From Deltaproteobacteria bacterium (GTDB lineage Bacteria; Desulfobacterota; Binatia; UTPRO1), in contig VBKW01000036.1 in NCBI GenBank assembly GCA_005879405.1, positions 1 to 41,728 of the forward strand: DNA of 41,728 bases, given 5' to 3'. A model generated the notes under the pieces. It ran no database searches. It saw only the letters and a list, made by a program, of their open reading frames with translations, and was not told the origin of the DNA. The translations under genes were made by a program, and so were the position numbers. Below are positions 28,422 through 36,818 of this stretch, piece after piece (position 1 is the first letter of the stretch; each line of letters begins with the position of its first letter).

Positions 28422-29095
28422 TGGCACGGCCGCTCGCGCTCGGCGTCCTGCTCTCCGGCGGCGGCACCAACCTCCAGGCATTGATCGACGCGATCGCTGC
28501 GCGCGCGCTCGACGCGCGCATCGGCGTCGTCGTCAGCAACCAAGCCGCCGCCGGCGGCCTCGCCCGCGCCCGCACGCACGGCATCCCGTCGGTCGTCGTG
28601 CCGCACGGCGATTTCCCGTCGCGCGCGGCGTTCGACACCCGGCTCGTCGAGGTCCTGCACGCGCACGGCGTCGAGCTCGTCGTGCTCGCCGGCTTCATGC
28701 GCCTCGTGACGCCGGTGCTGCTCGGCGCGTTTCCGGCCCGCGTCCTCAACATCCATCCCGCCCTGCTGCCGTCGTTTCCCGGTTTGCACGCGGAGCGCCA
28801 AGCCTTGGAGCACGGCGCGCGCGTGACCGGCGTCACCGTCCACTTCGTCGACGAGCACGCCGACCACGGCCCGATCATTCTCCAGATCGCGGTGCCGATC
28901 CTTCCCGACGACGACGAGGAGCGGCTCCATCTCCGCATCCAGCGTCAGGAGCACCGCGCGTACGCGCAGGCGATCCAATGGATCGCCGAGGGCCGCATCC
29001 GCATCGACGGCCGGCACGTCCTCGTCGACGGCGCGCCGATCGACGCCGACGCGACGCTCGCGAGCCCCGGCGTCTCTCAGCGCACGTCGTCGTAG
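28421..29095 (+). CDS. purN: phosphoribosylglycinamide formyltransferase
   Basis: LLSGGGTNLQA, LAGFMR, LNIHPALLPSFPG, TVHFVDE..DHGPII; ATG overlaps the purM TGA. Confidence 0.96.
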   Translation: MARPLALGVLLSGGGTNLQALIDAIAARALDARIGVVVSNQAAAGGLARARTHGIPSVVVPHGDFPSRAAFDTRLVEVLHAHGVELVVLAGFMRLVTPVLLGAFPARVLNIHPALLPSFPGLHAERQALEHGARVTGVTVHFVDEHADHGPIILQIAVPILPDDDEERLHLRIQRQEHRAYAQAIQWIAEGRIRIDGRHVLVDGAPIDADATLASPGVSQRTSS

Positions 29096-29754
29096 AGCCG
29101 CCGCAGGCGCGCCGGCGAGACGCCGAGTGCGTGCGCCAGGCGCAGCCCCCACATCAACGCGACGGTGCGCAGCGGCCCGCGCCGTTCCCAGCGTCGACCC
29201 GAGGTGACGACGCGGGCGCGCAGGCACGCCGCGCGTCCGCGACGCTTGAGCGCCGCCGTGAAGCGCACGTCCTCGAAGAGCGGTACCGTGGCGTAGCCGC
29301 CGAGCGCCTCGAACGCGACGCGGCGCACGAATATCGCCTGGTCGCCGGTCGCGATCCCCGTCCAGCGCGACCGCCAGTTCATCCCGGCGGCGACGAGCGG
29401 CAGCCAGCGGCTCGTGCCGTCGAGGTGCACGTCGAAGCGGCCGCCGACGACGCCGGGATCCGCGAGCGCGTCGGCGATCGCGACGTCGAAGCCGCGCGGC
29501 AGCAGCGTGTCGGCGTGGAGAAAGAGCAGCGTGTCCCCGCTCGCCGCCGCCGCGCCGGCATTCATCTGCGACGCCCGTCCCGCCGGCGCCCGCAGCACGC
29601 GGTCGGCGTCGCGCGCCGCGACCTCGCTCGTGCGATCACGACTGCCGCCGTCGACGACGATGACCTCGTGCACGTGCCCGCTGCGCACGCGCGCGAGCGT
29701 CGCGCCGATCGTGCGCTCCTCGTCGAGCGCCGGCACGATCACGGACAGTCGCAC
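29077..29754 (-). CDS. GT2 glycosyltransferase, TIGR04283-like
   Basis: SVIVPALDEE, VVDGGSRD, GRASQMNAGA, LFLHADT, TGDQAIFV, PLFEDV, TSGRRW. Confidence 0.88.
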   Translation of the reverse strand: MRLSVIVPALDEERTIGATLARVRSGHVHEVIVVDGGSRDRTSEVAARDADRVLRAPAGRASQMNAGAAAASGDTLLFLHADTLLPRGFDVAIADALADPGVVGGRFDVHLDGTSRWLPLVAAGMNWRSRWTGIATGDQAIFVRRVAFEALGGYATVPLFEDVRFTAALKRRGRAACLRARVVTSGRRWERRGPLRTVALMWGLRLAHALGVSPARLRRLYDDVR

Positions 29755-29792
29755 GCGCCGGTGTATGGACGTGCGGCGCGCGATGTCAAACC

Positions 29793-29933
29793 GTACTGGG
29801 CCGATTTGCTTCGCGATACTTCGTTGCTCGGGCGCTCCTGCTCGGCGTAGCGCTGCTACGCCTGCGCTGCTTGTCCTCGCTTGACGAGGGCTCGCTTCCC
29901 TCGCGCCTCGTCTCGCTCGCAACTCGACCCAGT
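29793..29933. repeat. Palindromic REP/MITE-like element, copy 2 (inverted, with an extra internal hairpin)
   Basis: Reverse complement aligns to 22296-22419; extra cctcgcttgacgagg segment; sits in the divergent promoter region. Confidence 0.8.
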
Positions 29934-29967
29934 CGAAATCGTTGCGCCCGTCTGGTACCCCTGGCGC

Positions 29968-30651
29968 GTGACCGATCCCGCGCTCCGCGCGTTGCTCCTC
30001 GACTACGGTGGAACGCTCGACGGCGACGCGCGGCACTGGTTCGATCATTTTCTCGAGCTCTACGCGCGCTGCGGCGTCGCGCTCTCGGCCGCGGCGTTGA
30101 AGCCGGCGTTCTATGCCGCCGACGAGGCGCTCGCGGCGGAGCCGGACGTGCGTCACTTCGGACTCGAACGCATGACGGACGCGCACGTGCGCTTGCAGCT
30201 CGCGGCGCTCGGACACACCGACGCCGCCCTGGTGCGACGGCTCGTCGACGCCTTCGTCGCTGACACGCGCGCCGCGTGGGAGCGGAATCGGCCCCTGCTG
30301 CAGCGGCTCGCACGCGCGTTGCGGCTCGGCGTCGTGTCGAACTCGTACGGCAACATGCCGGCGCTGCTCGCCGAGGCGGCGCTGGCGCCGTTCGAGGTGA
30401 TCATCGACTCAGCCCTGGTCGGCCTCCGCAAGCCCGATCCGGCGATCTACACGCTCGCCGCGCGCCGTCTCGACCTCCCGCCGGCGGCGATCCTCCACGT
30501 CGGCGACTCGTGGGAGCGCGACGTGGTCCCGGCCGTCGCGGCGGGAATGCGCGCCGTGTGGCTGGCGGCGCCGGACGCACCGGCGCCAGCCGTGCTCGCT
30601 CGTGTCACCCGCATCGCGTCGCTGCGCGAGCTGGAGGCGGTCGTCGCATGA
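29968..30651 (+). CDS. HAD-superfamily hydrolase
   Basis: LDYGGTLD, VVSN, GLRKPDPAIY, HVGDSWERDV. Confidence 0.88.
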   Translation: MTDPALRALLLDYGGTLDGDARHWFDHFLELYARCGVALSAAALKPAFYAADEALAAEPDVRHFGLERMTDAHVRLQLAALGHTDAALVRRLVDAFVADTRAAWERNRPLLQRLARALRLGVVSNSYGNMPALLAEAALAPFEVIIDSALVGLRKPDPAIYTLAARRLDLPPAAILHVGDSWERDVVPAVAAGMRAVWLAAPDAPAPAVLARVTRIASLRELEAVVA

Positions 30652-31355
30652 GAGCGGGCATCATCGCCGCCGGGCTCGGTGAGCGCCTCCGCCGCGCCGG
30701 CATCACGACGCCGAAGCCGCTCCTCGCGATCGGCGGCGAGCCGCTCATCGCGCGCGCGATCGCCACGGTGCGCACCGCCGGCGCGACCAGCGTCGCGTGC
30801 ATCGTGAACGCCGAGACCGATCAGGTGCGACGCTTCCTCGCCGAGACGGACTTCGGCGTCCCCGTGCACGTCGTGCAGCGTACGACCGCGAGCTCGGCGG
30901 AGAGCTTTCTCGCGCTGCGGCCGCTCCTCGACGGCGCGCCGTTCCTCCTGTCGACGGTCGACGCCGTGATCGCCCCCGCCGCCGTCGCCGCGTTGGTGCG
31001 CGCGGCGACCGCGCATCGGGACGCCGCCGGCGTTCTCGGCGTCACGACCGTCGTCGACGACGAGAAGCCGCTCTGGGCGGAGCTCGGCGCCGACGATCGC
31101 ATCGTGACGCTCGGCGACGCCGCGCGTGCGCGCCACGTAACAGCCGGCGTTTACTTCCTGAAACCGCTGGTATATTCGCTCGCTGATGCGTACGGAGCCG
31201 GCAGTTGGAGCGCATTTCGCCGCGTGCTCTGCGCACTTTTGGAGCACGGTCACGTGCTCTACGGCTACGACGTCGGCCCGAGCGTCGACGTCGATCGCCC
31301 CGAGGACGTCGCCGCGGCGGAGCGGCTGCTCGGCCTGACCGGCCGCGCGGGGTGA
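30648..31355 (+). CDS. nucleotidyltransferase (NTP_transferase family)
   Basis: IIAAGLGERL...PKPLL.IGGEPLI, STVD, DVDRPEDV; ATGA overlap with the HAD gene. Confidence 0.88.
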   Translation: MRAGIIAAGLGERLRRAGITTPKPLLAIGGEPLIARAIATVRTAGATSVACIVNAETDQVRRFLAETDFGVPVHVVQRTTASSAESFLALRPLLDGAPFLLSTVDAVIAPAAVAALVRAATAHRDAAGVLGVTTVVDDEKPLWAELGADDRIVTLGDAARARHVTAGVYFLKPLVYSLADAYGAGSWSAFRRVLCALLEHGHVLYGYDVGPSVDVDRPEDVAAAERLLGLTGRAG

Positions 31356-31359
31356 CCGC

Positions 31360-32193
31360 ATGCCGACGATCGTGGGCGTGTTTCGCGAGGCGGAGTATTC
31401 ACCCGGCAAGGTCGAGGACGATGCCGCCATCCTCGAGCGCACCGCCGCGGCGCTCACCGGCCGCGGCTTCGCCGTCCGTCTCGGCGAGCCCGCGCTCGCG
31501 CTCGCCGACGATGTCGACGCGGTGCTCGCGATGTGCCAATCGCCGGCGGCGCTCGCCGTCCTCGATGCCGCGGCGGCTCGCGTACCGGTCGTGAACGCAC
31601 CGGTCGCGATCCGCAACTGCTTCCGCACCGAGACCGTCCGCTTGCTCGCGGCGGCCGTGCCGTTTCCGGCGACGACGATCGTCGCCACCGACGCGCCGGA
31701 CGCAGTCGATCCGGCTGGGGTCGGGACGCCGTGCTGGGTGAAACGGGGCGACGTCCATGCGATGGAGCGCGACGACGTCGTCTTCGCCGCCGACGGCGCG
31801 GCGCTCGGCGCCGCGCTGGCGCGCCTGCGCGCGCGGGGAATCGTCGCGGCGGCGGTGCAGGCGCACGTCGCGGGACCCGTCGTCAAGTTCTACGGCGTCG
31901 CCGACGGCCGCTTCTTCCGTTGCTACACCGACGGCGCCGACGTGCCGGCGCCGGTCGAGCGCTTGTGGACGGCCGCACGTGCCGGCGCCGCCCTGCTCGG
32001 CCTCGACGTCTTCGGCGGCGATCTCGTCGTCACGCCGGAGGGCGAGCCGGTCTTGATCGACGTCAACGACTGGCCGAGCTTCGCGCGTTGCCGCGACGAG
32101 GCCGCGGACGCCATCGCGGGCTACCTTGCCGATCGCGTGGCGGTGCGCCGTCAACCGCACCGGGCGTCGGCGCCACGGCGGGTACACGCATGA
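31360..32193 (+). CDS. ATP-grasp-fold protein (possible cyclitol kinase or ligase)
   Basis: WVKRGDVH, VQAHVAGPVVKFYGV, LGLDVFGGDLVV, LIDVNDWPSF. Confidence 0.7.
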   Translation: MPTIVGVFREAEYSPGKVEDDAAILERTAAALTGRGFAVRLGEPALALADDVDAVLAMCQSPAALAVLDAAAARVPVVNAPVAIRNCFRTETVRLLAAAVPFPATTIVATDAPDAVDPAGVGTPCWVKRGDVHAMERDDVVFAADGAALGAALARLRARGIVAAAVQAHVAGPVVKFYGVADGRFFRCYTDGADVPAPVERLWTAARAGAALLGLDVFGGDLVVTPEGEPVLIDVNDWPSFARCRDEAADAIAGYLADRVAVRRQPHRASAPRRVHA

Positions 32194-32223
32194 CGCGCCC
32201 CGGCGCATCGAGAAGGGATTCGC

Positions 32224-33546
32224 GTGCAGGATAGACCGGGCCTGCGCTCACGCGCGCTCTTCCGTGACGAGCGGGACGTCATCGCCCCCGGGCAGCAGCG
32301 TATCGCGCTGCTCTCGCAGCTCGCGCTGGCGTCCGGCCAGGGCGCGAGCGTGACCGACGTCGACGGCAACACCTATCTCGATTTCTTCGCCGGCGTCGCC
32401 GTCGCGAGTCTCGGCCACGCGCACCCGCGCTACGTCGCCGCGGTCGAAGCGCAGCTGCGGCGCATCTCGGTCGGCAGCTTCACCACCGAGAGCCGCCTCC
32501 GTTTGCTGCGTCTGATCGCCCGCCTCGCGCCCGGCGACCTCGGCCGCACGCAGCTCTACAGCGGCGGCGCGGAGGCGGTCGAGGCGGCGTTCCGCCTCGC
32601 GATGTCGTACACGGGGAAGTACGAGATCGTCGGATTCTGGGGCGGCTTCCACGGCAAGACCGCGGGCGTCATGGGCCTCATCGGCGATGAGTCGAAGCAC
32701 GGCTGGGGGCCGCTGCCCGGCGGCCGCTTCTCGGTCCCGTACCCCGACTGCTACCGCTGCCCCTTCAAGCTCAGCTACCCCGACTGCGCGCTGGCGTGCG
32801 TCGACTTCGCGCGCGAGAGCATCACGCGCACGACGTCGGGCGCCGTCGCCGCGATCATCGTCGAGCCGATGCAGGGCACCGCGGGGAACGTCGTCCCACC
32901 GCCGGAGTTCCTGCCCGCGATCCGCGACCTCGCGCACGAGATCGGCGCCGTGCTCATCGCCGACGAGATGATCACCGGCTTCGGACGTACGGGCCGCTGG
33001 TTCGGCTGCAATCACACCGGCGTTGTCCCCGACGTCATGACGGTCGGCAAAGGGATGGGGAACGGCTTCCCGATCAGCGGCCTCATCTCGACCGATGAGA
33101 TCGTCGCCGCGACGCCGTTCGCGCGCCCGAGCGCGTCGTCGTCGAGCTACGGCGGCAACCCGCTCGCCGCGGCGGCGGCGCTCGCCACGTTGGAAACGAT
33201 CGTCGACGACGGGCTCGTCGAGCACGCCGCGCGCGTCGGCGCCCGCATGCTCGACGGTCTCCGCGACATGCAGGAGCGCTATCCGTTCATCGGCGACGTG
33301 CGCGGCGTCGGCCTGCTCATCGGTCTCGACCTCGTCCGCGATCGCGCCACCAAGGAGCCCCTCGGTCGCGAGGTCACCGAGCGCATCTTCACCGAGGCGC
33401 TCCGCCGCGGGCTGCTCATGATGGGCTATTTCCCGCGCGTCCGCATCAATCCGCCGCTGACGATCACGCAAGAGCAGGCGGACGCCGGCCTCGCGATCCT
33501 CGAGGAGGTGTTCGCCGCTGTCGCCGTGGAGGTGCGCGCGACGTGA
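32224..33546 (+). CDS. class III PLP-dependent aminotransferase
   Basis: DVDGNTYLDF, SLGHAHP, SGGAEAVE, GFHGKT, IVEPMQG, IADEMITGFGRTG, VGKGMGNG, SYGGNP. Confidence 0.92.
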   Translation: MQDRPGLRSRALFRDERDVIAPGQQRIALLSQLALASGQGASVTDVDGNTYLDFFAGVAVASLGHAHPRYVAAVEAQLRRISVGSFTTESRLRLLRLIARLAPGDLGRTQLYSGGAEAVEAAFRLAMSYTGKYEIVGFWGGFHGKTAGVMGLIGDESKHGWGPLPGGRFSVPYPDCYRCPFKLSYPDCALACVDFARESITRTTSGAVAAIIVEPMQGTAGNVVPPPEFLPAIRDLAHEIGAVLIADEMITGFGRTGRWFGCNHTGVVPDVMTVGKGMGNGFPISGLISTDEIVAATPFARPSASSSSYGGNPLAAAAALATLETIVDDGLVEHAARVGARMLDGLRDMQERYPFIGDVRGVGLLIGLDLVRDRATKEPLGREVTERIFTEALRRGLLMMGYFPRVRINPPLTITQEQADAGLAILEEVFAAVAVEVRAT

Positions 33547-34616
33547 CGATCCGCCGCAACCGCGCGCTCCGCGGCGCCCTCGTCGGCTTCGGGAACGTGG
33601 CCGTTCACGGTCACGTTCCCGTGTGGAAGAACGACCGCCACTTTTCGATCCTCGCCGTCTGTGACCCCGACGAGGCGCAGCTCGCGGTCGCCGCCGAGCT
33701 GTTGCCGGACGTGCGCCGCTACCCGACGGTCGACGAGCTCTTCGCCAACGAGCGGCTCGACTTCGTGGACGTCGCGACGCCGCCCGCGCTGCACGGCGAG
33801 CTCGCGATCAAGGCCGCCGCGCAAGGGATCCACGTGCTCTGCGAGAAGCCGCTCACCCTCAGCGTCGACGAGTGCAACCGCATCCGCAGCGCGGCCAGCG
33901 CCGCCCACGTCGTCGTCTTCACCAATCACAATTGGAAGTACGCGCCGATCTTCCGCACCGCGAAGCGCGTGCTCCGTCGCGGCGAGATCGGCCGCGTGAC
34001 GCACGTGGAGCTACAAACGCTGCGGATGCAGCCGCCAGCGACGGTCGGCGAGGGCGATACCTGGCGTCTCGACCCAGCGCGCTCCGGCGGCGGGATCCTC
34101 GTCGATCACGGTTGGCATGCCTTCTACCTCGCGCTGTACGCGCTCGATGCCGAGCCGATCGCGGTGAGCGCCCGCACCGCGCGCCGCAAGTTCCTCGCCA
34201 GCGGCGTCGAGGACACCGCCAATTGCACGATCGAGTTCGACGGCGCCACGGCAGAGATCTTTCTCACCTGGGCGGCCGACGAGCGCCGCAACGCCGCCCG
34301 CTTCACGGGTGCCCAGGGGACAATCGACGTCGCCGACCGGACGCTGATCGTGCGCGTCGCCGAGCGCGCGCCGGTCGAGACAGGATTCGCGCAGCCGCTC
34401 TCGGCGGGGTCGTACCATCCCGATTGGTTCGCGGCGCTGCTCGACGATTTCCGCGAAGAGCTGTACGAGCCGAAGCTGCGCGGCGCGAACTTCCGCGAGG
34501 CGGAGACGTGCTGCCGTTTGCTCGAGCTCGCGTATCGCTCGAGCGCTGCGGACGGCGCGCGTCTGCCCTTCCGTGAGGTGTTGCCGCCGATCGAGGGCCC
34601 CGGCGCCGGTGAGTGA
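33543..34616 (+). CDS. Gfo/Idh/MocA family NAD(P)-dependent oxidoreductase
   Basis: VGFGNVA, VATPPALH, HVLCEKP, SGGGILVDHGWH. Confidence 0.92.
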   Translation: MTIRRNRALRGALVGFGNVAVHGHVPVWKNDRHFSILAVCDPDEAQLAVAAELLPDVRRYPTVDELFANERLDFVDVATPPALHGELAIKAAAQGIHVLCEKPLTLSVDECNRIRSAASAAHVVVFTNHNWKYAPIFRTAKRVLRRGEIGRVTHVELQTLRMQPPATVGEGDTWRLDPARSGGGILVDHGWHAFYLALYALDAEPIAVSARTARRKFLASGVEDTANCTIEFDGATAEIFLTWAADERRNAARFTGAQGTIDVADRTLIVRVAERAPVETGFAQPLSAGSYHPDWFAALLDDFREELYEPKLRGANFREAETCCRLLELAYRSSAADGARLPFREVLPPIEGPGAGE

Positions 34617-35766
34617 CGGCGCCGCGGCGCCGCTCCGGTTCGACGACGCCACATCGAGCTCTGCGCCGCCCTTCGATACCGTGCTCGTCGTCCACCCGGC
34701 GAGCGACCACGAGGTCGCGGGTCTCCACCTCGTCGAGCGCGCCGCGTTCACGCTCGCGCGCGCGGGCGCACGACGGCTCCTGTGTGTCGGCACGCGGCCG
34801 GCGCGGACGCTCCGCCGGCCGGACGTGCCGATCGCATGGGTCGCCGCGGACGACACTGCGGCGCTCGCGTCCTGGCTCGCGAATGCGACCGCCTTCGTCG
34901 TCGGCATGGACGCCGCCGCCGTGACGGACGCCGACACCGTCGTCGCGCTTGCCGCCGATCCACGCGCCGGTCTTCTCGCGACCACCGGCGGCGGGCGTCT
35001 CTGGCGCGCCCCGCGCGAGCGCGTCGCCGCGGTGCTCCAGGGCGCGGTCACGGACGCGACGCAATGGACGCCGCCGGCGGGGGGTTTCCTCCTTCCCGCC
35101 GCCGACGCCGCCGCGCGCGCGACCGCGGCGCAGGCGCTCTTCGCGCGTCTCGGGCGTCCCAGCGACGGCTGGCTCACGCGGCTCGTGGACCGCCGCATCT
35201 CGAACGCCCTCACCGGCCTGCTTCTACCGACCGGCGTGACGCCGAATCAGGTGACGGTGGCCTCGCTCGCCGCCGGCATACTCGCCAGCGGACTCTTCGC
35301 CACCGGTAGCCGCGCCGCCGCCGTCGCCGGCGCGCTCCTCTTTCTCGGCTCGACGATCGTGGACGGCTGCGACGGCGAGCTCGCGCGCCTCACGTTTCGC
35401 GAGTCCCGTTTCGGCGCGCTGCTCGACCTCGTCGGCGACAACGTCGTCCACGTCTTTCTCTTCGCCGGCATCGCGTACGGGCTCTACCGCCGCGATCACG
35501 ATCCACGCCTCGCGGTCGCCGGGTCGGCGGTCGTCCTCGGCGTCCTCGCGGCGATGATCGCCGTCTACGCCTGCCTCGCTCGCCGTGAGCCGACCGCTCG
35601 CCAACGCGCCTTGTTCCAGGCGTTCGCCAGCCGCGAGTTCGCTTACCTCCTGGTCGTCCTCACGCTCGCCGGAAAGCTCGCGTGGTTTCTCTGGATCGCC
35701 GCCGTCGGTACGTGGGCGTTCGTCGTCGCGCTCGTCGCGCTGCGACAGGATCGTCAGAAGGCGTAG
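34609..35766 (+). CDS. CDP-alcohol phosphotransferase with a degenerate N-terminal nucleotidyltransferase-like region
   Basis: TPNQVT and DGCDGELAR-x7-G-x3-D-x3-D signature with TM helices; N-terminal VAGLHLVERAAFTLARAG; GTG at 34609. Confidence 0.88.
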   Translation: MSDGAAAPLRFDDATSSSAPPFDTVLVVHPASDHEVAGLHLVERAAFTLARAGARRLLCVGTRPARTLRRPDVPIAWVAADDTAALASWLANATAFVVGMDAAAVTDADTVVALAADPRAGLLATTGGGRLWRAPRERVAAVLQGAVTDATQWTPPAGGFLLPAADAAARATAAQALFARLGRPSDGWLTRLVDRRISNALTGLLLPTGVTPNQVTVASLAAGILASGLFATGSRAAAVAGALLFLGSTIVDGCDGELARLTFRESRFGALLDLVGDNVVHVFLFAGIAYGLYRRDHDPRLAVAGSAVVLGVLAAMIAVYACLARREPTARQRALFQAFASREFAYLLVVLTLAGKLAWFLWIAAVGTWAFVVALVALRQDRQKA

Positions 35767-36380
35767 GCGAGCCCGGCAATCAAGAGATTGCTGTTGAGAC
35801 CCGGGTTGCTGCGCGACTGGCCCGCGTTCGAGATGTGACGGAAGCGGTAGCCCGCAGTCGCGGCGAGACCGTTCCAGAGCGGCACCTGCAACCCGACCGC
35901 ACCCTGCGCCGTGAAGAGGACGCGCGACCCGAGGTCGAAGTGGCGCAGGTCGCTGTACAGCATGCCGCCTTCCAGCTCGGCGTACGGCTGCACCCGCGGG
36001 AACGCGAGGCGATAGCGCAGCAGGAGACCGCCGCCGAGCTCCATCGCGTGTGTGGGCTCGAAGATGCGGCTGAACATGCCCTCGACGCCGAACGTGACCA
36101 CGCCGGGCGCCGGGCCGTCGAGGACCCTGACCACACGGCTGAGACGCGGAAAGAACGTGACCATCTGCGCGTTGCTGCCGAGGGCGAACGAGTACGCGGC
36201 CTGCAGCCCCGCCTCGTACGAGCCGATTGCCGGCGCGGAGCTCGGCAACACGACGTCCGATGTCGCGGCGGCGTTGGACGCTCGTACATCATCCGCGTGC
36301 GCGGCGCGCGCGACGCCGAGCGTCACGGCGACGACACACAGCAACGTCGTCGTCGCGCCCCGGAAGGGAAACTTTCCCAC
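35754..36380 (-). CDS. PagL-like acyloxyacyl hydrolase / lipid A 3-O-deacylase outer-membrane beta-barrel (start uncertain)
   Basis: Signal peptide-like N-terminus, PYAELEGG, GYRFRHISNAG..NPGLNS, C-terminal YAF. Confidence 0.8.
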   Translation of the reverse strand: MGKFPFRGATTTLLCVVAVTLGVARAAHADDVRASNAAATSDVVLPSSAPAIGSYEAGLQAAYSFALGSNAQMVTFFPRLSRVVRVLDGPAPGVVTFGVEGMFSRIFEPTHAMELGGGLLLRYRLAFPRVQPYAELEGGMLYSDLRHFDLGSRVLFTAQGAVGLQVPLWNGLAATAGYRFRHISNAGQSRSNPGLNSNLLIAGLAYAF

Positions 36381-36416
36381 CCGCGGACGTGTTATGATCA
36401 TCGAGAGGATAAAGCC

Positions 36417-36818
36417 ATGACGCATAACCCAACCTCCCCTCGCGCCAGCGAACGCTGGGACGAGGCATTCCCGCTCCTGCCGGTACAGCATGCCGACCTG
36501 TGCCGTCGCAGCGAGCCCGTACAGCCCGAGCGCCGTCTCATGCTGGCCGTGCTGAGCGACGCGATCGTGCTGTTCCAGACGCGCGGTTCGCCCGGATGTC
36601 GCCGCGACGTCGAGAGCGCCAGACGATGGATCCTGTCCGACGATCGCGCCTGGCCGTTCTCGTTCGTCAACGTCTGCGACACGCTCGGGATCGCGTTCGA
36701 GCCGTTGCGGCGTGCGCTCACGCGGACGCTGCACGAGCTGCCGCGGGAGCACCGTACAGCGGCACGGCGGCGGCTCCTCGCGGGTATCCGCGACGAGCCG
36801 CTCGCGCGGACCGGCTGA
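36417..36818 (+). CDS. conserved hypothetical protein (PE.RLMLAVL.DA...W..SDD..WPFSF.N.C..LG family)
   Basis: ATG after GAGGA; motif recalled from uncharacterised proteins of Binatia-like genomes. Confidence 0.75.
   Translation: MTHNPTSPRASERWDEAFPLLPVQHADLCRRSEPVQPERRLMLAVLSDAIVLFQTRGSPGCRRDVESARRWILSDDRAWPFSFVNVCDTLGIAFEPLRRALTRTLHELPREHRTAARRRLLAGIRDEPLARTG

What the first reader, a model, noticed from the sequence alone, without database searches (positions are those of the whole stretch)
29968..35766. Six-gene operon that may build an amino-cyclitol phosphodiester lipid or solute
Seen: six co-oriented genes with overlapping or near-abutting stops and starts: HAD, nucleotidyltransferase, ATP-grasp, class III aminotransferase, Gfo/Idh/MocA dehydrogenase, CDP-alcohol phosphotransferase. 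Known: NTP transferase + CDP-alcohol phosphotransferase + phosphatase is the logic of di-myo-inositol-phosphate synthesis (IPCT/DIPPS) and of the NTP-transferase-type inositol lipid clusters of Bacteroidota, which normally include myo-inositol-1-phosphate synthase. A dehydrogenase plus an aminotransferase is the standard way to turn a cyclitol OH into NH2 (inosose to inosamine). Inference: no MIPS is present in this window, and an oxidation/transamination pair is added instead. That suggests cyclitol -> keto -> amino-cyclitol -> phosphate -> CDP-activated -> phosphodiester, with HAD trimming. I know of no characterised pathway with this gene set; substrate and step order are unproven.
Basis: partly seen in the sequence, partly recalled or inferred. 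Interest (0 to 1): 0.8.

Follow-up and report, generated by a model that had tools for sequence, protein, structure and literature searches.

The report
Operon for aminated inositol-phosphate head group
Six tightly packed genes of an uncultured soil bacterium belong to a widespread, uncharacterised gene set that probably converts inositol to an amino-inositol phosphate and attaches it, through a CDP-activated intermediate, to a membrane molecule; no such head group has been described.

Summary
Six co-oriented, overlapping or abutting genes lie at 29968-35766: HAD, nucleotidyltransferase, ATP-grasp, class III aminotransferase, Gfo/Idh/MocA dehydrogenase and a CDP-alcohol phosphotransferase.

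The organism is a Candidatus Binatia MAG. All six genes keep this order in 21 of 24 relatives' loci and in 19 of 80 loci found through the aminotransferase, including other phyla.

The transferase has the AF2299/IPCT-DIPPS build: a relic cytidylyltransferase-like domain plus an intact catalytic motif. Every transferase next to an aminotransferase orthologue scores best against inositol-phosphate-using subfamilies.

Inositol-phosphate synthase (MIPS) is absent from the window but present elsewhere in the genome. It lies inside the cluster in several other phyla.

The aminotransferase, dehydrogenase and a transferase recur in three architectures. One has PgpA and an MMPL exporter. A flippase-like (HpnL-like) gene accompanies the cassette in 21 of 24 metagenome loci.

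Best reading (0.55): a CDP-activated route to an amino-inositol phosphate head group on a membrane lipid. The acceptor, step order and ATP-grasp role are inferred (a kinase is favoured). A soluble DIP-like product is not excluded.

The literature searches found no paper describing this gene set. Earlier notes of this scan reached the same reading on other genomes.

The parts
29968..30651 (+). HAD-IA family hydrolase. Presumed phosphatase: either of inositol phosphate at the start of the pathway or of the phosphorylated product at the end.
   Evidence: PF00702 9.2e-16. Only generic HAD-IA NCBIfam models are passed. Motif I reads DxGGTLD, without the usual Asp+2, in at least 95% of 31 orthologues.
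30648..31355 (+). Nucleotidyltransferase, presumed CTP:(amino)inositol-phosphate cytidylyltransferase.
   Evidence: PF12804 1.2e-11. It aligns over its whole length with the IPCT half of NF041135 at 1.1e-9, below the cut-off. G9, R13 and K23 of the G-loop signature are conserved in 34 sequences. The start overlaps the HAD stop (ATGA).
31360..32193 (+). ATP-grasp enzyme of an unnamed family. Favoured role: cyclitol or cyclitol-phosphate kinase. Alternative: amide ligase.
   Evidence: Model pLDDT 93.3. Foldseek matches Ddl/RimK/LysX at about 1e-13; maize ITPK1 7tn7 gives TM 0.72/0.74. 8 of 22 orthologues give weak Ins134_P3_kin hits, best E 0.017. No NCBIfam model is reached. Atlas neighbours are 'hypothetical protein' clusters. 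It occurs with NT and HAD in 24 of 24 loci, two of them without the aminotransferase.
32224..33546 (+). Class III (omega-type) PLP aminotransferase, presumed inosose(-phosphate) to inosamine(-phosphate).
   Evidence: PF00202 1.6e-100. The best NCBIfam score is 366.6 against a cut-off of 552; none of the 25 models shown is reached. It is the most conserved gene of the set, 64-96% identity within Binatia and 54-60% in other phyla. K276 and D247 are conserved in 76 sequences.
33543..34616 (+). Gfo/Idh/MocA NAD(P) dehydrogenase, presumed (phospho)inositol to inosose.
   Evidence: PF01408 and PF22725. IolG model 4.4e-24, 85 bits against a cut-off of 355. E101-K102-P103 and D188...H192 are conserved in 54 sequences.
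34573..35766 (+). CDP-alcohol phosphotransferase with an N-terminal relic cytidylyltransferase-like domain (AF2299/DIPPS build). An alternative start lies at 34609.
   Evidence: PF01066 at residues 223-380. NF041135 8.6e-20. AF2299 4o6m 1.8e-19 by sequence. Model pLDDT 92.3. Foldseek gives AF2299 at 2.5e-12 with TMt 0.73 and IPCT-DIPPS 4mnd at 1.5e-11. The motif DGCDGELAR...GALLDLVGD is intact. The N-domain has no glycine-rich loop.
29077..29754 (-). Divergent upstream family-2 glycosyltransferase. Membership of the system is uncertain.
   Evidence: TIGR04283, 260.3 bits against a cut-off of 182. It keeps this position only in L045, L048, L056 and L029. Most relatives carry an HpnL-like gene and a second transferase paralogue there.
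35754..36401 (-). Convergent PagL-like outer-membrane lipid A deacylase. A neighbour, probably not part of the pathway.
   Evidence: PF09411 1.6e-17. It is kept downstream only in 5 relatives' loci: L014, L015, L029 and L031, of which L014, L015 and L031 are also L045, L047 and L049.

Best explanation
The operon is the core of a conserved cassette that makes an aminated inositol-phosphate head group and joins it by a phosphodiester to a membrane molecule.

Shown:
- The six genes, their synteny and their folds.
- A DIPPS/AF2299-type transferase with intact catalytic residues and a dead activating domain.
- A separate nucleotidyltransferase with a catalytically competent-looking signature.

Inferred route:
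1. Inositol phosphate comes from the MIPS encoded elsewhere in the genome.
2. The Gfo-type dehydrogenase oxidises one ring hydroxyl.
3. The class III aminotransferase turns the ketone into an amine.
4. The ATP-grasp enzyme supplies the phosphate needed for activation, acting as a kinase. In that case the HAD enzyme first frees inositol. Alternatively the HAD enzyme trims a second phosphate at the end.
5. The nucleotidyltransferase makes the CDP-alcohol.
6. The membrane transferase passes the phospho-alcohol to an acceptor.

The acceptor is unknown. A glycerolipid, a hopanoid polyol or the head of an inositol lipid are all possible. A flippase-like partner, encoded in cis in most relatives and elsewhere in this genome, would move the product across the membrane.
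For: Synteny:
- 21 of 24 relatives' loci.
- 19 of 80 loci in the same order, and 6 more rearranged, including MAGs labelled Acidobacteriota, Nitrospirae, Elusimicrobia, Nitrospinaceae and Verrucomicrobiota.
- Anchored on the ATP-grasp in metagenomes, among 24 loci with enough flank: HAD 24, NT 24, transferase 23, aminotransferase 22, dehydrogenase 22, HpnL-like 21.

Inositol link:
- All 10 further transferases tested from these contexts also score best on AIP, PIP or DIPP synthase models, and far lower on PgsA, PssA or Cls (window protein).
- MIPS lies inside the cluster in L103, L076, L084, L085 and L042 and in 5 of 24 metagenome loci.
- MIPS was found in 23 of 26 cassette-bearing Binatia genomes against 7 of 15 without the cassette (kin are not independent).

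Lipid link:
- In Polyangia the trio sits as dehydrogenase, PIP-synthase-like transferase, GtrA, aminotransferase, PgpA, with MMPL opposite.
- Flippase-like PF03706 genes, MlaC and OEP are neighbours.
- In L042, L067 and L068 the operon runs on into an HpnL-like gene and HpnK.

Precedent:
- Gfo-family Hyg17 plus the aminotransferase Hyg8 make an aminocyclitol from myo-inositol (PMC10949010, passages).
- An NT + transferase + HAD + MIPS cluster is proposed for inositol lipids in Bacteroides (PMC9246714, passages).

ATP-grasp role:
- It occurs without the aminotransferase in L153 and L203, always with NT and HAD. This argues against a ligase that needs the amine.
Against: - No product is known, and every carrier seen is an uncultured MAG or a metagenome contig.
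- Af2299 and AfDIPP synthase, the closest solved relatives, 'do not process lipids'. The six-helix build is said to go with soluble acceptors (PMC4634129, passages). This favours a soluble product, or at least a soluble acceptor.
- MIPS is not in the window. No MIPS was found in 3 of 26 cassette-bearing genomes, one of them rated 100% complete, nor in 1 of 5 genomes of other phyla.
- Class III aminotransferases are the rarer partners of PF01408 enzymes: 1,236 against 15,139 DegT-type neighbours.
- The HAD lacks the Asp+2 general acid, so a plain phosphatase role is not assured.
- The fold of the ATP-grasp does not separate kinase from ligase.
- This window itself carries no flippase-like, MIPS or hopanoid gene.
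Confidence: 0.55

Rival explanations
1. The product is a soluble phosphodiester of the di-myo-inositol-phosphate or glycero-phospho-inositol kind, with an amino-inositol in it. A soluble CDP-alcohol is joined to a soluble (amino)inositol phosphate, and the HAD enzyme removes the remaining phosphate.
For: - The transferase has the AF2299/IPCT-DIPPS architecture. Those two enzymes use soluble donors and do not process lipids.
- A separate nucleotidyltransferase implies a soluble CDP-alcohol donor.
- NT + transferase + phosphatase is exactly the DIP logic.
Against: - A flippase-like membrane protein is a near-constant partner, in 21 of 24 loci.
- PgpA, MMPL and GtrA accompany the same aminotransferase/dehydrogenase pair in Polyangia.
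- HpnK, MlaC and OEP are neighbours.
- The carriers are soil MAGs. From recall, DIP-type solutes are known from hyperthermophiles.
Confidence: 0.15
2. The cassette makes an ordinary (non-aminated) inositol head group by the CDP-inositol route. The dehydrogenase and aminotransferase act on something else, for instance another sugar or polyol moiety added later, or epimerise the ring by oxidation and reduction.
For: - NT, ATP-grasp, transferase, HAD and MIPS occur without the pair in L203, and partly in L153. The inositol branch therefore stands alone.
- The substrate of the pair is not shown by any search.
Against: - The pair is tied to an inositol-type transferase in three unrelated architectures: transferase within 8 kb in 40 of 43 loci and dehydrogenase in 36 of 43.
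- In Polyangia no other sugar-handling enzyme lies in the cluster.
- A dehydrogenase followed by an aminotransferase is the standard hydroxyl-to-amine route.
Confidence: 0.15
3. The alcohol is not a cyclitol but a small polyol such as glycerol. The product would be an amino-propanediol or serinol-type phospho head group.
For: - AF2299, the best structural match, binds CDP-glycerol.
- Glycerol kinase and glycerol-3-phosphate dehydrogenase genes flank the operon in L042, L067 and L068.
- PgpA sits in the Polyangia version.
Against: - All transferases score much better on inositol-phosphate-using models than on PgsA, for example 1e-25 to 1e-42 against 1e-5 to 1e-7.
- MIPS lies in cis in several phyla.
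- MIPS co-occurs with the cassette.
Confidence: 0.08
4. The genes are neighbours without a common pathway. The aminotransferase would be a GabT/ArgD-type housekeeping enzyme and the dehydrogenase a sugar catabolic enzyme.
For: The best named models for the aminotransferase are GABA and acetylornithine aminotransferase families.
Against: - No such model's cut-off is reached. ArgD is encoded elsewhere (482 bits against a cut-off of 410; the window protein scores 269).
- The genome has 7 class III aminotransferases.
- Overlapping start and stop codons.
- Synteny across phyla.
Confidence: 0.02

Closest known systems
IPCT/DIPPS with a phosphatase: the di-myo-inositol-phosphate pathway (Archaeoglobus fulgidus, PDB 4MND)
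   Same: - A cytidylyltransferase makes a CDP-alcohol, a CDP-alcohol phosphotransferase joins it to an alcohol phosphate, and a phosphatase trims the product.
- Best NCBIfam model for the transferase (8.6e-20).
- Foldseek 1.5e-11.
   Different: - The score is 71 bits against a cut-off of 580.
- The fused N-domain has lost its glycine-rich loop, and the activating enzyme is a separate gene.
- A dehydrogenase, an aminotransferase and an ATP-grasp enzyme are added.
- The host is a mesophilic soil bacterium with flippase-like partners.
AF2299 of A. fulgidus (PDB 4O6M/4O6N/4Q7C), a CDP-alcohol phosphotransferase of unassigned physiological role
   Same: - The same two-part build: a cytidylyltransferase-like cytosolic domain plus a helical membrane domain.
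- Best sequence match in the PDB (1.8e-19) and best fold match (TMt 0.73).
   Different: - About 19-20% identity over the fold alignment.
- AF2299 was crystallised with CDP-glycerol and is said not to process lipids.
- Its gene context was not examined here.
Putative 'alternative' inositol-lipid cluster of Bacteroides vulgatus and Prevotella (Heaver et al. 2022, PMC9246714; passages read)
   Same: [quoted passage not shown]
- Relatives of this operon carry the same accessory genes.
- L203 has NT, ATP-grasp, transferase, HAD and MIPS without the amination pair.
   Different: - That cluster is itself unconfirmed.
- The passages read mention no aminotransferase (0 occurrences in the main text) and no dehydrogenase or ATP-grasp gene.
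- Homology to the Bacteroides proteins was not tested here, because no sequences were at hand.
Aminocyclitol branch of hygromycin A biosynthesis: Hyg18 MIPS, Hyg25 phosphatase, Hyg17 dehydrogenase, Hyg8 aminotransferase (PMC10949010; passages read)
   Same: [quoted passage not shown] This is the chemistry proposed here.
   Different: - It is a secondary-metabolite pathway of Streptomyces, with no CDP activation and no membrane transferase.
- The class of Hyg8 was not stated in the passages read.
Bacterial PIP synthase plus PIP phosphatase route to phosphatidylinositol (mycobacteria; BT_1523/BT_1525)
   Same: - The same enzyme superfamily and the same kind of acceptor.
- The Polyangia and Myxococcales versions of the trio use a short PIP/AIP-synthase-like transferase, with PgpA as the likely phosphatase.
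- This genome has its own MIPS, PIP-synthase-like and flippase-like trio on another contig.
   Different: - The window's transferase scores 45 bits against a cut-off of 170 on the PIP synthase model.
- It carries the extra N-domain.
HpnI-HpnK-HpnJ hopanoid side-chain genes and HpnL (function of HpnL unclear: bioRxiv 10.1101/2025.07.29.667474, passages read)
   Same: - A paralogue of the window's transferase lies beside an HpnL-like gene, HpnI (329 bits against 310), HpnJ (646 against 577.6) and an HpnK fragment in this genome.
- In L042, L067, L068 and L193 the six-gene operon runs into an HpnL-like gene and HpnK.
   Different: - No hopanoid gene lies in this window.
- The link is adjacency only.
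- The HpnL-like proteins score 147 bits against a cut-off of 195.65.

Membership tests
CDP-alcohol phosphotransferase (PF01066) | Signature D-x2-D-G-x2-A-R ... G-x3-D-x3-D | tested here: met
   DGCDGELARLTFRESRFGALLDLVGD. D252, G253, D255, G256, A259, R260, G269, D273 and D277 are invariant in 24 sequences. PF01066 scores 37.6 bits against a cut-off of 22.
Bifunctional IPCT/DIPPS (NF041135) | Score above the curated cut-off | tested here: not met
   71.1 bits against a cut-off of 580. Only the transferase half aligns (residues 196-389).
Bifunctional IPCT/DIPPS (NF041135) | N-terminal domain with a working cytidylyltransferase signature (glycine-rich loop with Arg/Lys) | tested here: not met
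   The nucleotidyltransferase-like fold is present: Foldseek hits to RmlA, IspD and MurU at 3e-3 to 2e-2, and to the whole of AF2299/4mnd. The loop reads VVHPASD with no glycines or Arg.
AF2299-type CDP-alcohol phosphotransferase | Cytidylyltransferase-like cytosolic domain fused to the helical transferase domain | tested here: met
   Model pLDDT 92.3. Foldseek gives 4q7c at 2.5e-12 with TMq 0.64 and TMt 0.73. phmmer gives 1.8e-19.
Bacterial PIP synthase (NF045883) / archaetidylinositol phosphate synthase (NF040950) | Score above the curated cut-off | tested here: not met
   45.1 bits against 170, and 51.1 against 180.
Bacteroides vulgatus-type alternative inositol-lipid cluster | NTP transferase, CDP-alcohol transferase and HAD hydrolase encoded together | tested here: met
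   Definition taken.
Bacteroides vulgatus-type alternative inositol-lipid cluster | MIPS gene in the immediate vicinity | tested here: not met
   There is no MIPS among the window genes that were scanned; several were not scanned. MIPS is on contig C270 of the same genome. It is in cis in L076, L084, L085, L103 and L042 and in 5 of 24 metagenome loci.
Bacteroides vulgatus-type alternative inositol-lipid cluster | Sequence homology to BVU_RS13095/13105/13115 | not tested
   No tool gave these sequences, and sequence from memory is not accepted.
Gfo/Idh/MocA dehydrogenases; inositol 2-dehydrogenase IolG (TIGR04380) | Family domains and catalytic EKP and D-x3-H; the IolG equivalog cut-off | tested here: inconclusive
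   The family is met: PF01408 84 bits against 24, with E101-K102-P103 and D188/H192 conserved. IolG is not met: 85 bits against 355. The substrate is not testable here.
ArgD / GabT class III aminotransferases | Score above the equivalog cut-offs | tested here: not met
   ArgD scores 271 or 269 against a cut-off of 410. GabT TIGR00700 scores 309 against 507. The true ArgD lies at C377 with 482 bits.
ATP-grasp superfamily | ATP-grasp fold with a conserved Lys and D-x-N metal ligands | tested here: met
   Foldseek E about 1e-13 to many ATP-grasp enzymes. K128, D234 and N236 are invariant in 22 sequences.
Inositol-phosphate kinase ITPK1 family (PF05770) | Pfam gathering score | tested here: not met
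   The window protein gives no hit. 8 of 22 orthologues give weak hits, best E 0.017. The fold match to ZmITPK1 has TM 0.72/0.74 but ranks 30th by E-value.
HAD phosphatases | Motif I D-x-D-x-T with Asp+2 as general acid | tested here: not met
   The motif is D12-x-G14-G15-T16-L17-D18. The nucleophile Asp is present and Asp+2 is replaced by Gly in at least 95% of 31 orthologues. That Asp+2 is the general acid is recalled knowledge.

The most novel reading that the evidence does not exclude
The cassette attaches a CDP-activated amino-inositol phosphate to a hopanoid polyol (bacteriohopanetetrol or a derivative). This would create a phosphodiester-linked hopanoid head group that has never been reported, and would give the HpnL-like flippase family its first role. 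In this genome the window operon would supply the activated head group. The transfer would be made by the window's transferase or by its paralogue, which sits in the hpnI-J-K cluster.
Probability: 0.15. Interest if true: 0.9.

Novelty: new variant of a known kind. Interest (0 to 1): 0.72.

Why it matters
If the reading holds, many uncultured soil and sediment phyla make a membrane head group of a kind absent from current lipid catalogues: an inositol ring bearing an amine. The phyla, by MAG labels, include Binatia, Acidobacteriota, Nitrospirota, Verrucomicrobiota, Elusimicrobiota and Myxococcota.

An amine on the ring would change surface charge. By my own arithmetic it would also be easy to mistake for phosphatidylinositol in mass spectra, because the mass is only 0.984 Da lower.

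The cassette would also give testable roles to three unassigned families: the ATP-grasp, the HpnL-like flippase-type protein, and the AF2299-type transferases with a relic activating domain. It would help settle the unconfirmed 'alternative' inositol-lipid route of gut Bacteroidota.

Tried and rejected
- Promoter and terminator consensus scan of 29000-36600: 0 sites of either kind. It is uninformative for this 70% G+C organism.
- Sequencing runs: no RNA holder is listed. 20 DNA rows of soil metagenomes hold the stretch or part of it, 13 with half of the words or more.
- The long ORF L088:7749-8960 was first taken as an N-domain fused to GtrA. BLASTP against the window's transferase and nucleotidyltransferase gave nothing. 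Re-calling the genes showed a short transferase gene plus a small GtrA gene instead.
- PDB sequence search with the ATP-grasp: only one hit, at E 0.16.
- Own-MIPS tblastn against the loci missed the second MIPS type. The search was repeated with the L103 protein.
- A notes look-up near this place returned nothing.
- Literature searches found no paper on this gene set, on an inosamine phospholipid, or on a hopanoid/CDP-alcohol link. Only the papers cited were read, as passages. Supplements were not seen. Those of Heaver 2022 and of the hopanoid preprint may list neighbouring genes that bear on this.
- My gene caller, tuned to high G+C, called no aminotransferase in 9 of 80 loci (L076, L080, L116, L118, L120-L124). 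These 9, and 28 loci with under 4 kb of flank, were left out of the 43-locus count. The tblastn counts cover all 80.

Full report
**1. Observation**

The window has about 70% G+C. ORF listing, third-position G+C and a codon-score gene call agree on six + strand genes between 29968 and 35766.

The junctions, read from the sequence, are:
- an ATGA overlap (HAD/nucleotidyltransferase);
- a 4-nt gap;
- a 30-nt gap preceded by GAGAAGGGA;
- a GTGA overlap (aminotransferase/dehydrogenase);
- an 8- or 44-nt overlap before the transferase.

The sixth has only a sub-threshold ATP-grasp hit. Its alignment-based model (pLDDT 93.3) matches Ddl, RimK, LysX/ArgX, PsnB and maize ITPK1 at about E 1e-13 to 1e-12, so the ATP-grasp call is right.

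The flanks are purM and purN, a divergent TIGR04283-type glycosyltransferase upstream, and a convergent PagL-like gene downstream. The rest of the window is housekeeping: purF, purL, purB, PNPase, PutA, IF-2 and NusA.

**2. Organism and conservation**

Record titles of near-identical loci name a Candidatus Binatia MAG. The same DNA recurs in soil metagenomes.

Around the best transferase match in related genomes, all six genes stand in the window's order in 21 of 24 loci. Two are cut by contig ends. One (L040) has the transferase divergent and no dehydrogenase hit. The aminotransferase is the most conserved member (64-96% identity).

A scan of one genome per species with the aminotransferase gave 80 loci:
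- 19 hold all six in order;
- 6 hold all six rearranged;
- 3 hold five.

The carriers outside Binatia are MAGs labelled Acidobacteriota, Nitrospirae, Elusimicrobia, Nitrospinaceae and Verrucomicrobiota.

A metagenome scan anchored on the ATP-grasp gave 80 more loci. In the 24 with enough flank the counts are HAD 24, nucleotidyltransferase 24, transferase 23, aminotransferase 22, dehydrogenase 22, and an HpnL-like membrane protein 21.

**3. Three architectures share one core**

I called genes in the loci and clustered them. A CDP-alcohol transferase lies within 8 kb of the aminotransferase in 40 of 43 loci with at least 4 kb of flank, and the dehydrogenase in 36 of 43. Nine loci without a gene call and 28 with short flanks were left out.

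- Type A is the window's six-gene form.
- Type B (Polyangia, one Gemmatimonas MAG) reads dehydrogenase, short transferase, GtrA, aminotransferase, PgpA, with an MMPL transporter opposite.
- Type C (Myxococcales, Acidobacteriota) reads transferase then aminotransferase, with the dehydrogenase a few genes away.

The type A transferases are long, with the motif DGCDGE-ARL. The type B and C transferases are short and PIP/AIP-synthase-like.

All 10 further transferases tested, like the window's own, score best on inositol-phosphate-using models (AIPS, PIPS, DIPPS). They score several to many orders of magnitude worse on PgsA, PssA or Cls. None reaches a curated cut-off.

**4. The inositol link**

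MIPS is absent from the window but present in the genome (C270, 126.6 bits). There it heads a trio of MIPS, a 245-aa PIP/AIP-synthase-like transferase and a flippase-like PF03706 protein.

A second MIPS type sits inside the cluster in L103, L076, L084 and L085, and at the edge of L042. MIPS is also in cis in 5 of 24 metagenome loci.

Among 41 Binatia genomes, MIPS was found in 23 of the 26 that carry the ATP-grasp cassette and in 7 of the 15 that do not. The genomes are kin, so this is not a test. Three carriers gave no MIPS hit, one of them rated 100% complete. Of five genomes of other phyla with the trio, four have MIPS.

**5. The transferase**

Its model (pLDDT 92.3) superposes on AF2299 (E 2.5e-12, TMt 0.73) and on IPCT-DIPPS (1.5e-11). 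AF2299 is also the best sequence match in the PDB (1.8e-19).

The N-terminal 180 residues have a nucleotidyltransferase-like fold but no glycine-rich loop. The separate nucleotidyltransferase keeps G9, R13 and K23. The activating domain is therefore a relic, and its job has passed to a neighbouring gene.

Clarke et al. 2015 (PMC4634129, passages) state three things:
- Af2299 and AfDIPP synthase carry such a domain.
- Neither of them processes lipids.
- The six-helix build goes with soluble acceptors.

This is the main argument for a soluble product.

**6. Evidence for a lipid**

- PgpA, MMPL and GtrA in type B.
- PF03706 flippase-like genes in 18 of the 80 genome loci and in 21 of 24 metagenome loci.
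- MlaC and an outer-membrane efflux protein in L032, L056 and L079.
- Heaver et al. 2022 (passages) describe an unconfirmed Bacteroides cluster of NTP transferase, CDP-alcohol transferase and HAD next to MIPS, with a lysyl-PG-synthase-like gene nearby, in species that make inositol lipids.

**7. The hopanoid lead**

Earlier notes of this scan had reached the same general reading on other genomes and pointed to hopanoid genes. I checked this.

- This genome has a squalene-hopene cyclase (805 bits against 431).
- A paralogue of the window's transferase (C2, 429 aa, intact motif) is followed by an HpnL-like gene, HpnI (329 against 310), HpnJ (646 against 577.6) and an HpnK fragment.
- The same arrangement recurs in four relatives' paralogue loci.
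- In L042, L067 and L068, and in metagenome locus L193, the six-gene operon itself continues into an HpnL-like gene and HpnK (317 against 232.6).
- A cyclase lies near the Binataceae loci L063, L064 and L066.

[quoted passage not shown] This is adjacency only, and the window itself has no hopanoid gene.

**8. Role of the ATP-grasp and the HAD**

Fold alone does not separate ligase from kinase.

The family has no name in Pfam, NCBIfam or the Atlas. Eight of 22 orthologues give weak inositol-trisphosphate-kinase hits.

The gene is always with the nucleotidyltransferase and HAD (24 of 24). It occurs without the aminotransferase and dehydrogenase in L153 and L203, and in L143, which was outside the count. 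An enzyme that needed the new amine would not be kept there, so I favour a kinase in the activation branch.

The HAD keeps its nucleophile but has Gly in place of Asp+2 in at least 95% of 31 orthologues. Its exact reaction is therefore open.

**9. Mechanism proposed**

- Shown: the genes, their synteny and folds, and intact catalytic signatures in the nucleotidyltransferase, dehydrogenase (EKP, D-x3-H), aminotransferase (K276, D247) and transferase.
- Inferred: inositol phosphate from MIPS; oxidation and transamination to an inosamine species, on the hygromycin A precedent; phosphorylation by the ATP-grasp; CMP transfer by the nucleotidyltransferase; phospho-alcohol transfer by the membrane enzyme; and phosphate trimming or initial dephosphorylation by HAD.
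- Not decided: whether amination happens on free inositol, on inositol phosphate or on the lipid; which alcohol is CDP-activated; and what the acceptor is.

**10. Comparison and novelty**

The parts are known kinds: DIP/GPI logic, aminocyclitol chemistry and inositol-lipid clusters. The literature searches and the library models found no description of the combination or of its presumed product. No curated family cut-off is reached by five of the six proteins.

I class it as a new variant of a known kind. The scan has met this cassette before on other DNA. That neither raises nor lowers the score.

Noticed in passing
window 29968-30651 and 30 orthologues: The HAD enzyme's motif I is D-x-G-G-T-L-D. 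The catalytic Asp+2 of HAD phosphatases is replaced by glycine in at least 95% of 31 sequences, and a conserved Asp sits at +6. It may not be a plain phosphatase.
   Followed up: partly
own genome, contig C270 (L044 6835-9915): MIPS, a 245-aa PIP/AIP-synthase-like transferase (134 bits against a cut-off of 180) and a flippase-like TIGR00374 protein stand in a row. This looks like a canonical phosphatidylinositol module, separate from the window's operon.
   Followed up: partly
own genome, contig C2 (L036 5327-11124): A paralogue of the window's transferase (same relic N-domain, intact motif) lies beside an HpnL-like gene (apparently frameshifted), HpnI, HpnJ and an HpnK fragment. The same layout is seen in L037, L038, L039 and L043.
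   Followed up: partly
relatives L046-L057, L113, L015-L031 (upstream of HAD): Most Binatia relatives carry a second, divergent transferase paralogue (350-435 aa) with the same relic N-domain. Its signature is altered (DGVDGKLAR...GELEHVGD, one residue shorter, Glu where Asp is expected). It is paired with an HpnL-like gene. This window and L045 have lost both.
   Followed up: partly
window 29077-29754 (-): The divergent glycosyltransferase passes the curated cut-off of TIGR04283, 'arsenosugar biosynthesis glycosyltransferase' (260 against 182). No arsenic or radical-SAM partner gene was among the window genes that I scanned; several were not scanned.
   Followed up: no
L059-L064, L066, L069 (Binataceae): This family's version has the transferase divergent with a B12-binding radical SAM gene (not HpnJ: 78 bits against 577.6). 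After the aminotransferase come a small second HAD, a SnoaL-like protein and luciferase-like monooxygenases, then the dehydrogenase. A squalene-hopene cyclase lies within about 9 kb.
   Followed up: partly
L042, L067, L068: Glycerol kinase (FGGY) and FAD glycerol-3-phosphate dehydrogenase genes lie next to the HAD end of the operon in the same three loci that carry HpnK.
   Followed up: no
L138, L163, L167, L173, L178, L183, L191, L192, L198, L200, L204, L205 and others: Many metagenome versions have the order aminotransferase, transferase, dehydrogenase, HpnL-like. The last two enzyme genes are swapped relative to the window.
   Followed up: no
L028, L029, L030, L031 (genomes G014, G008, G010, G004): Several cassette genes are split into two or more tblastn pieces in these few-contig assemblies. 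This more likely reflects indel errors of the assemblies than decay, but it was not checked.
   Followed up: no
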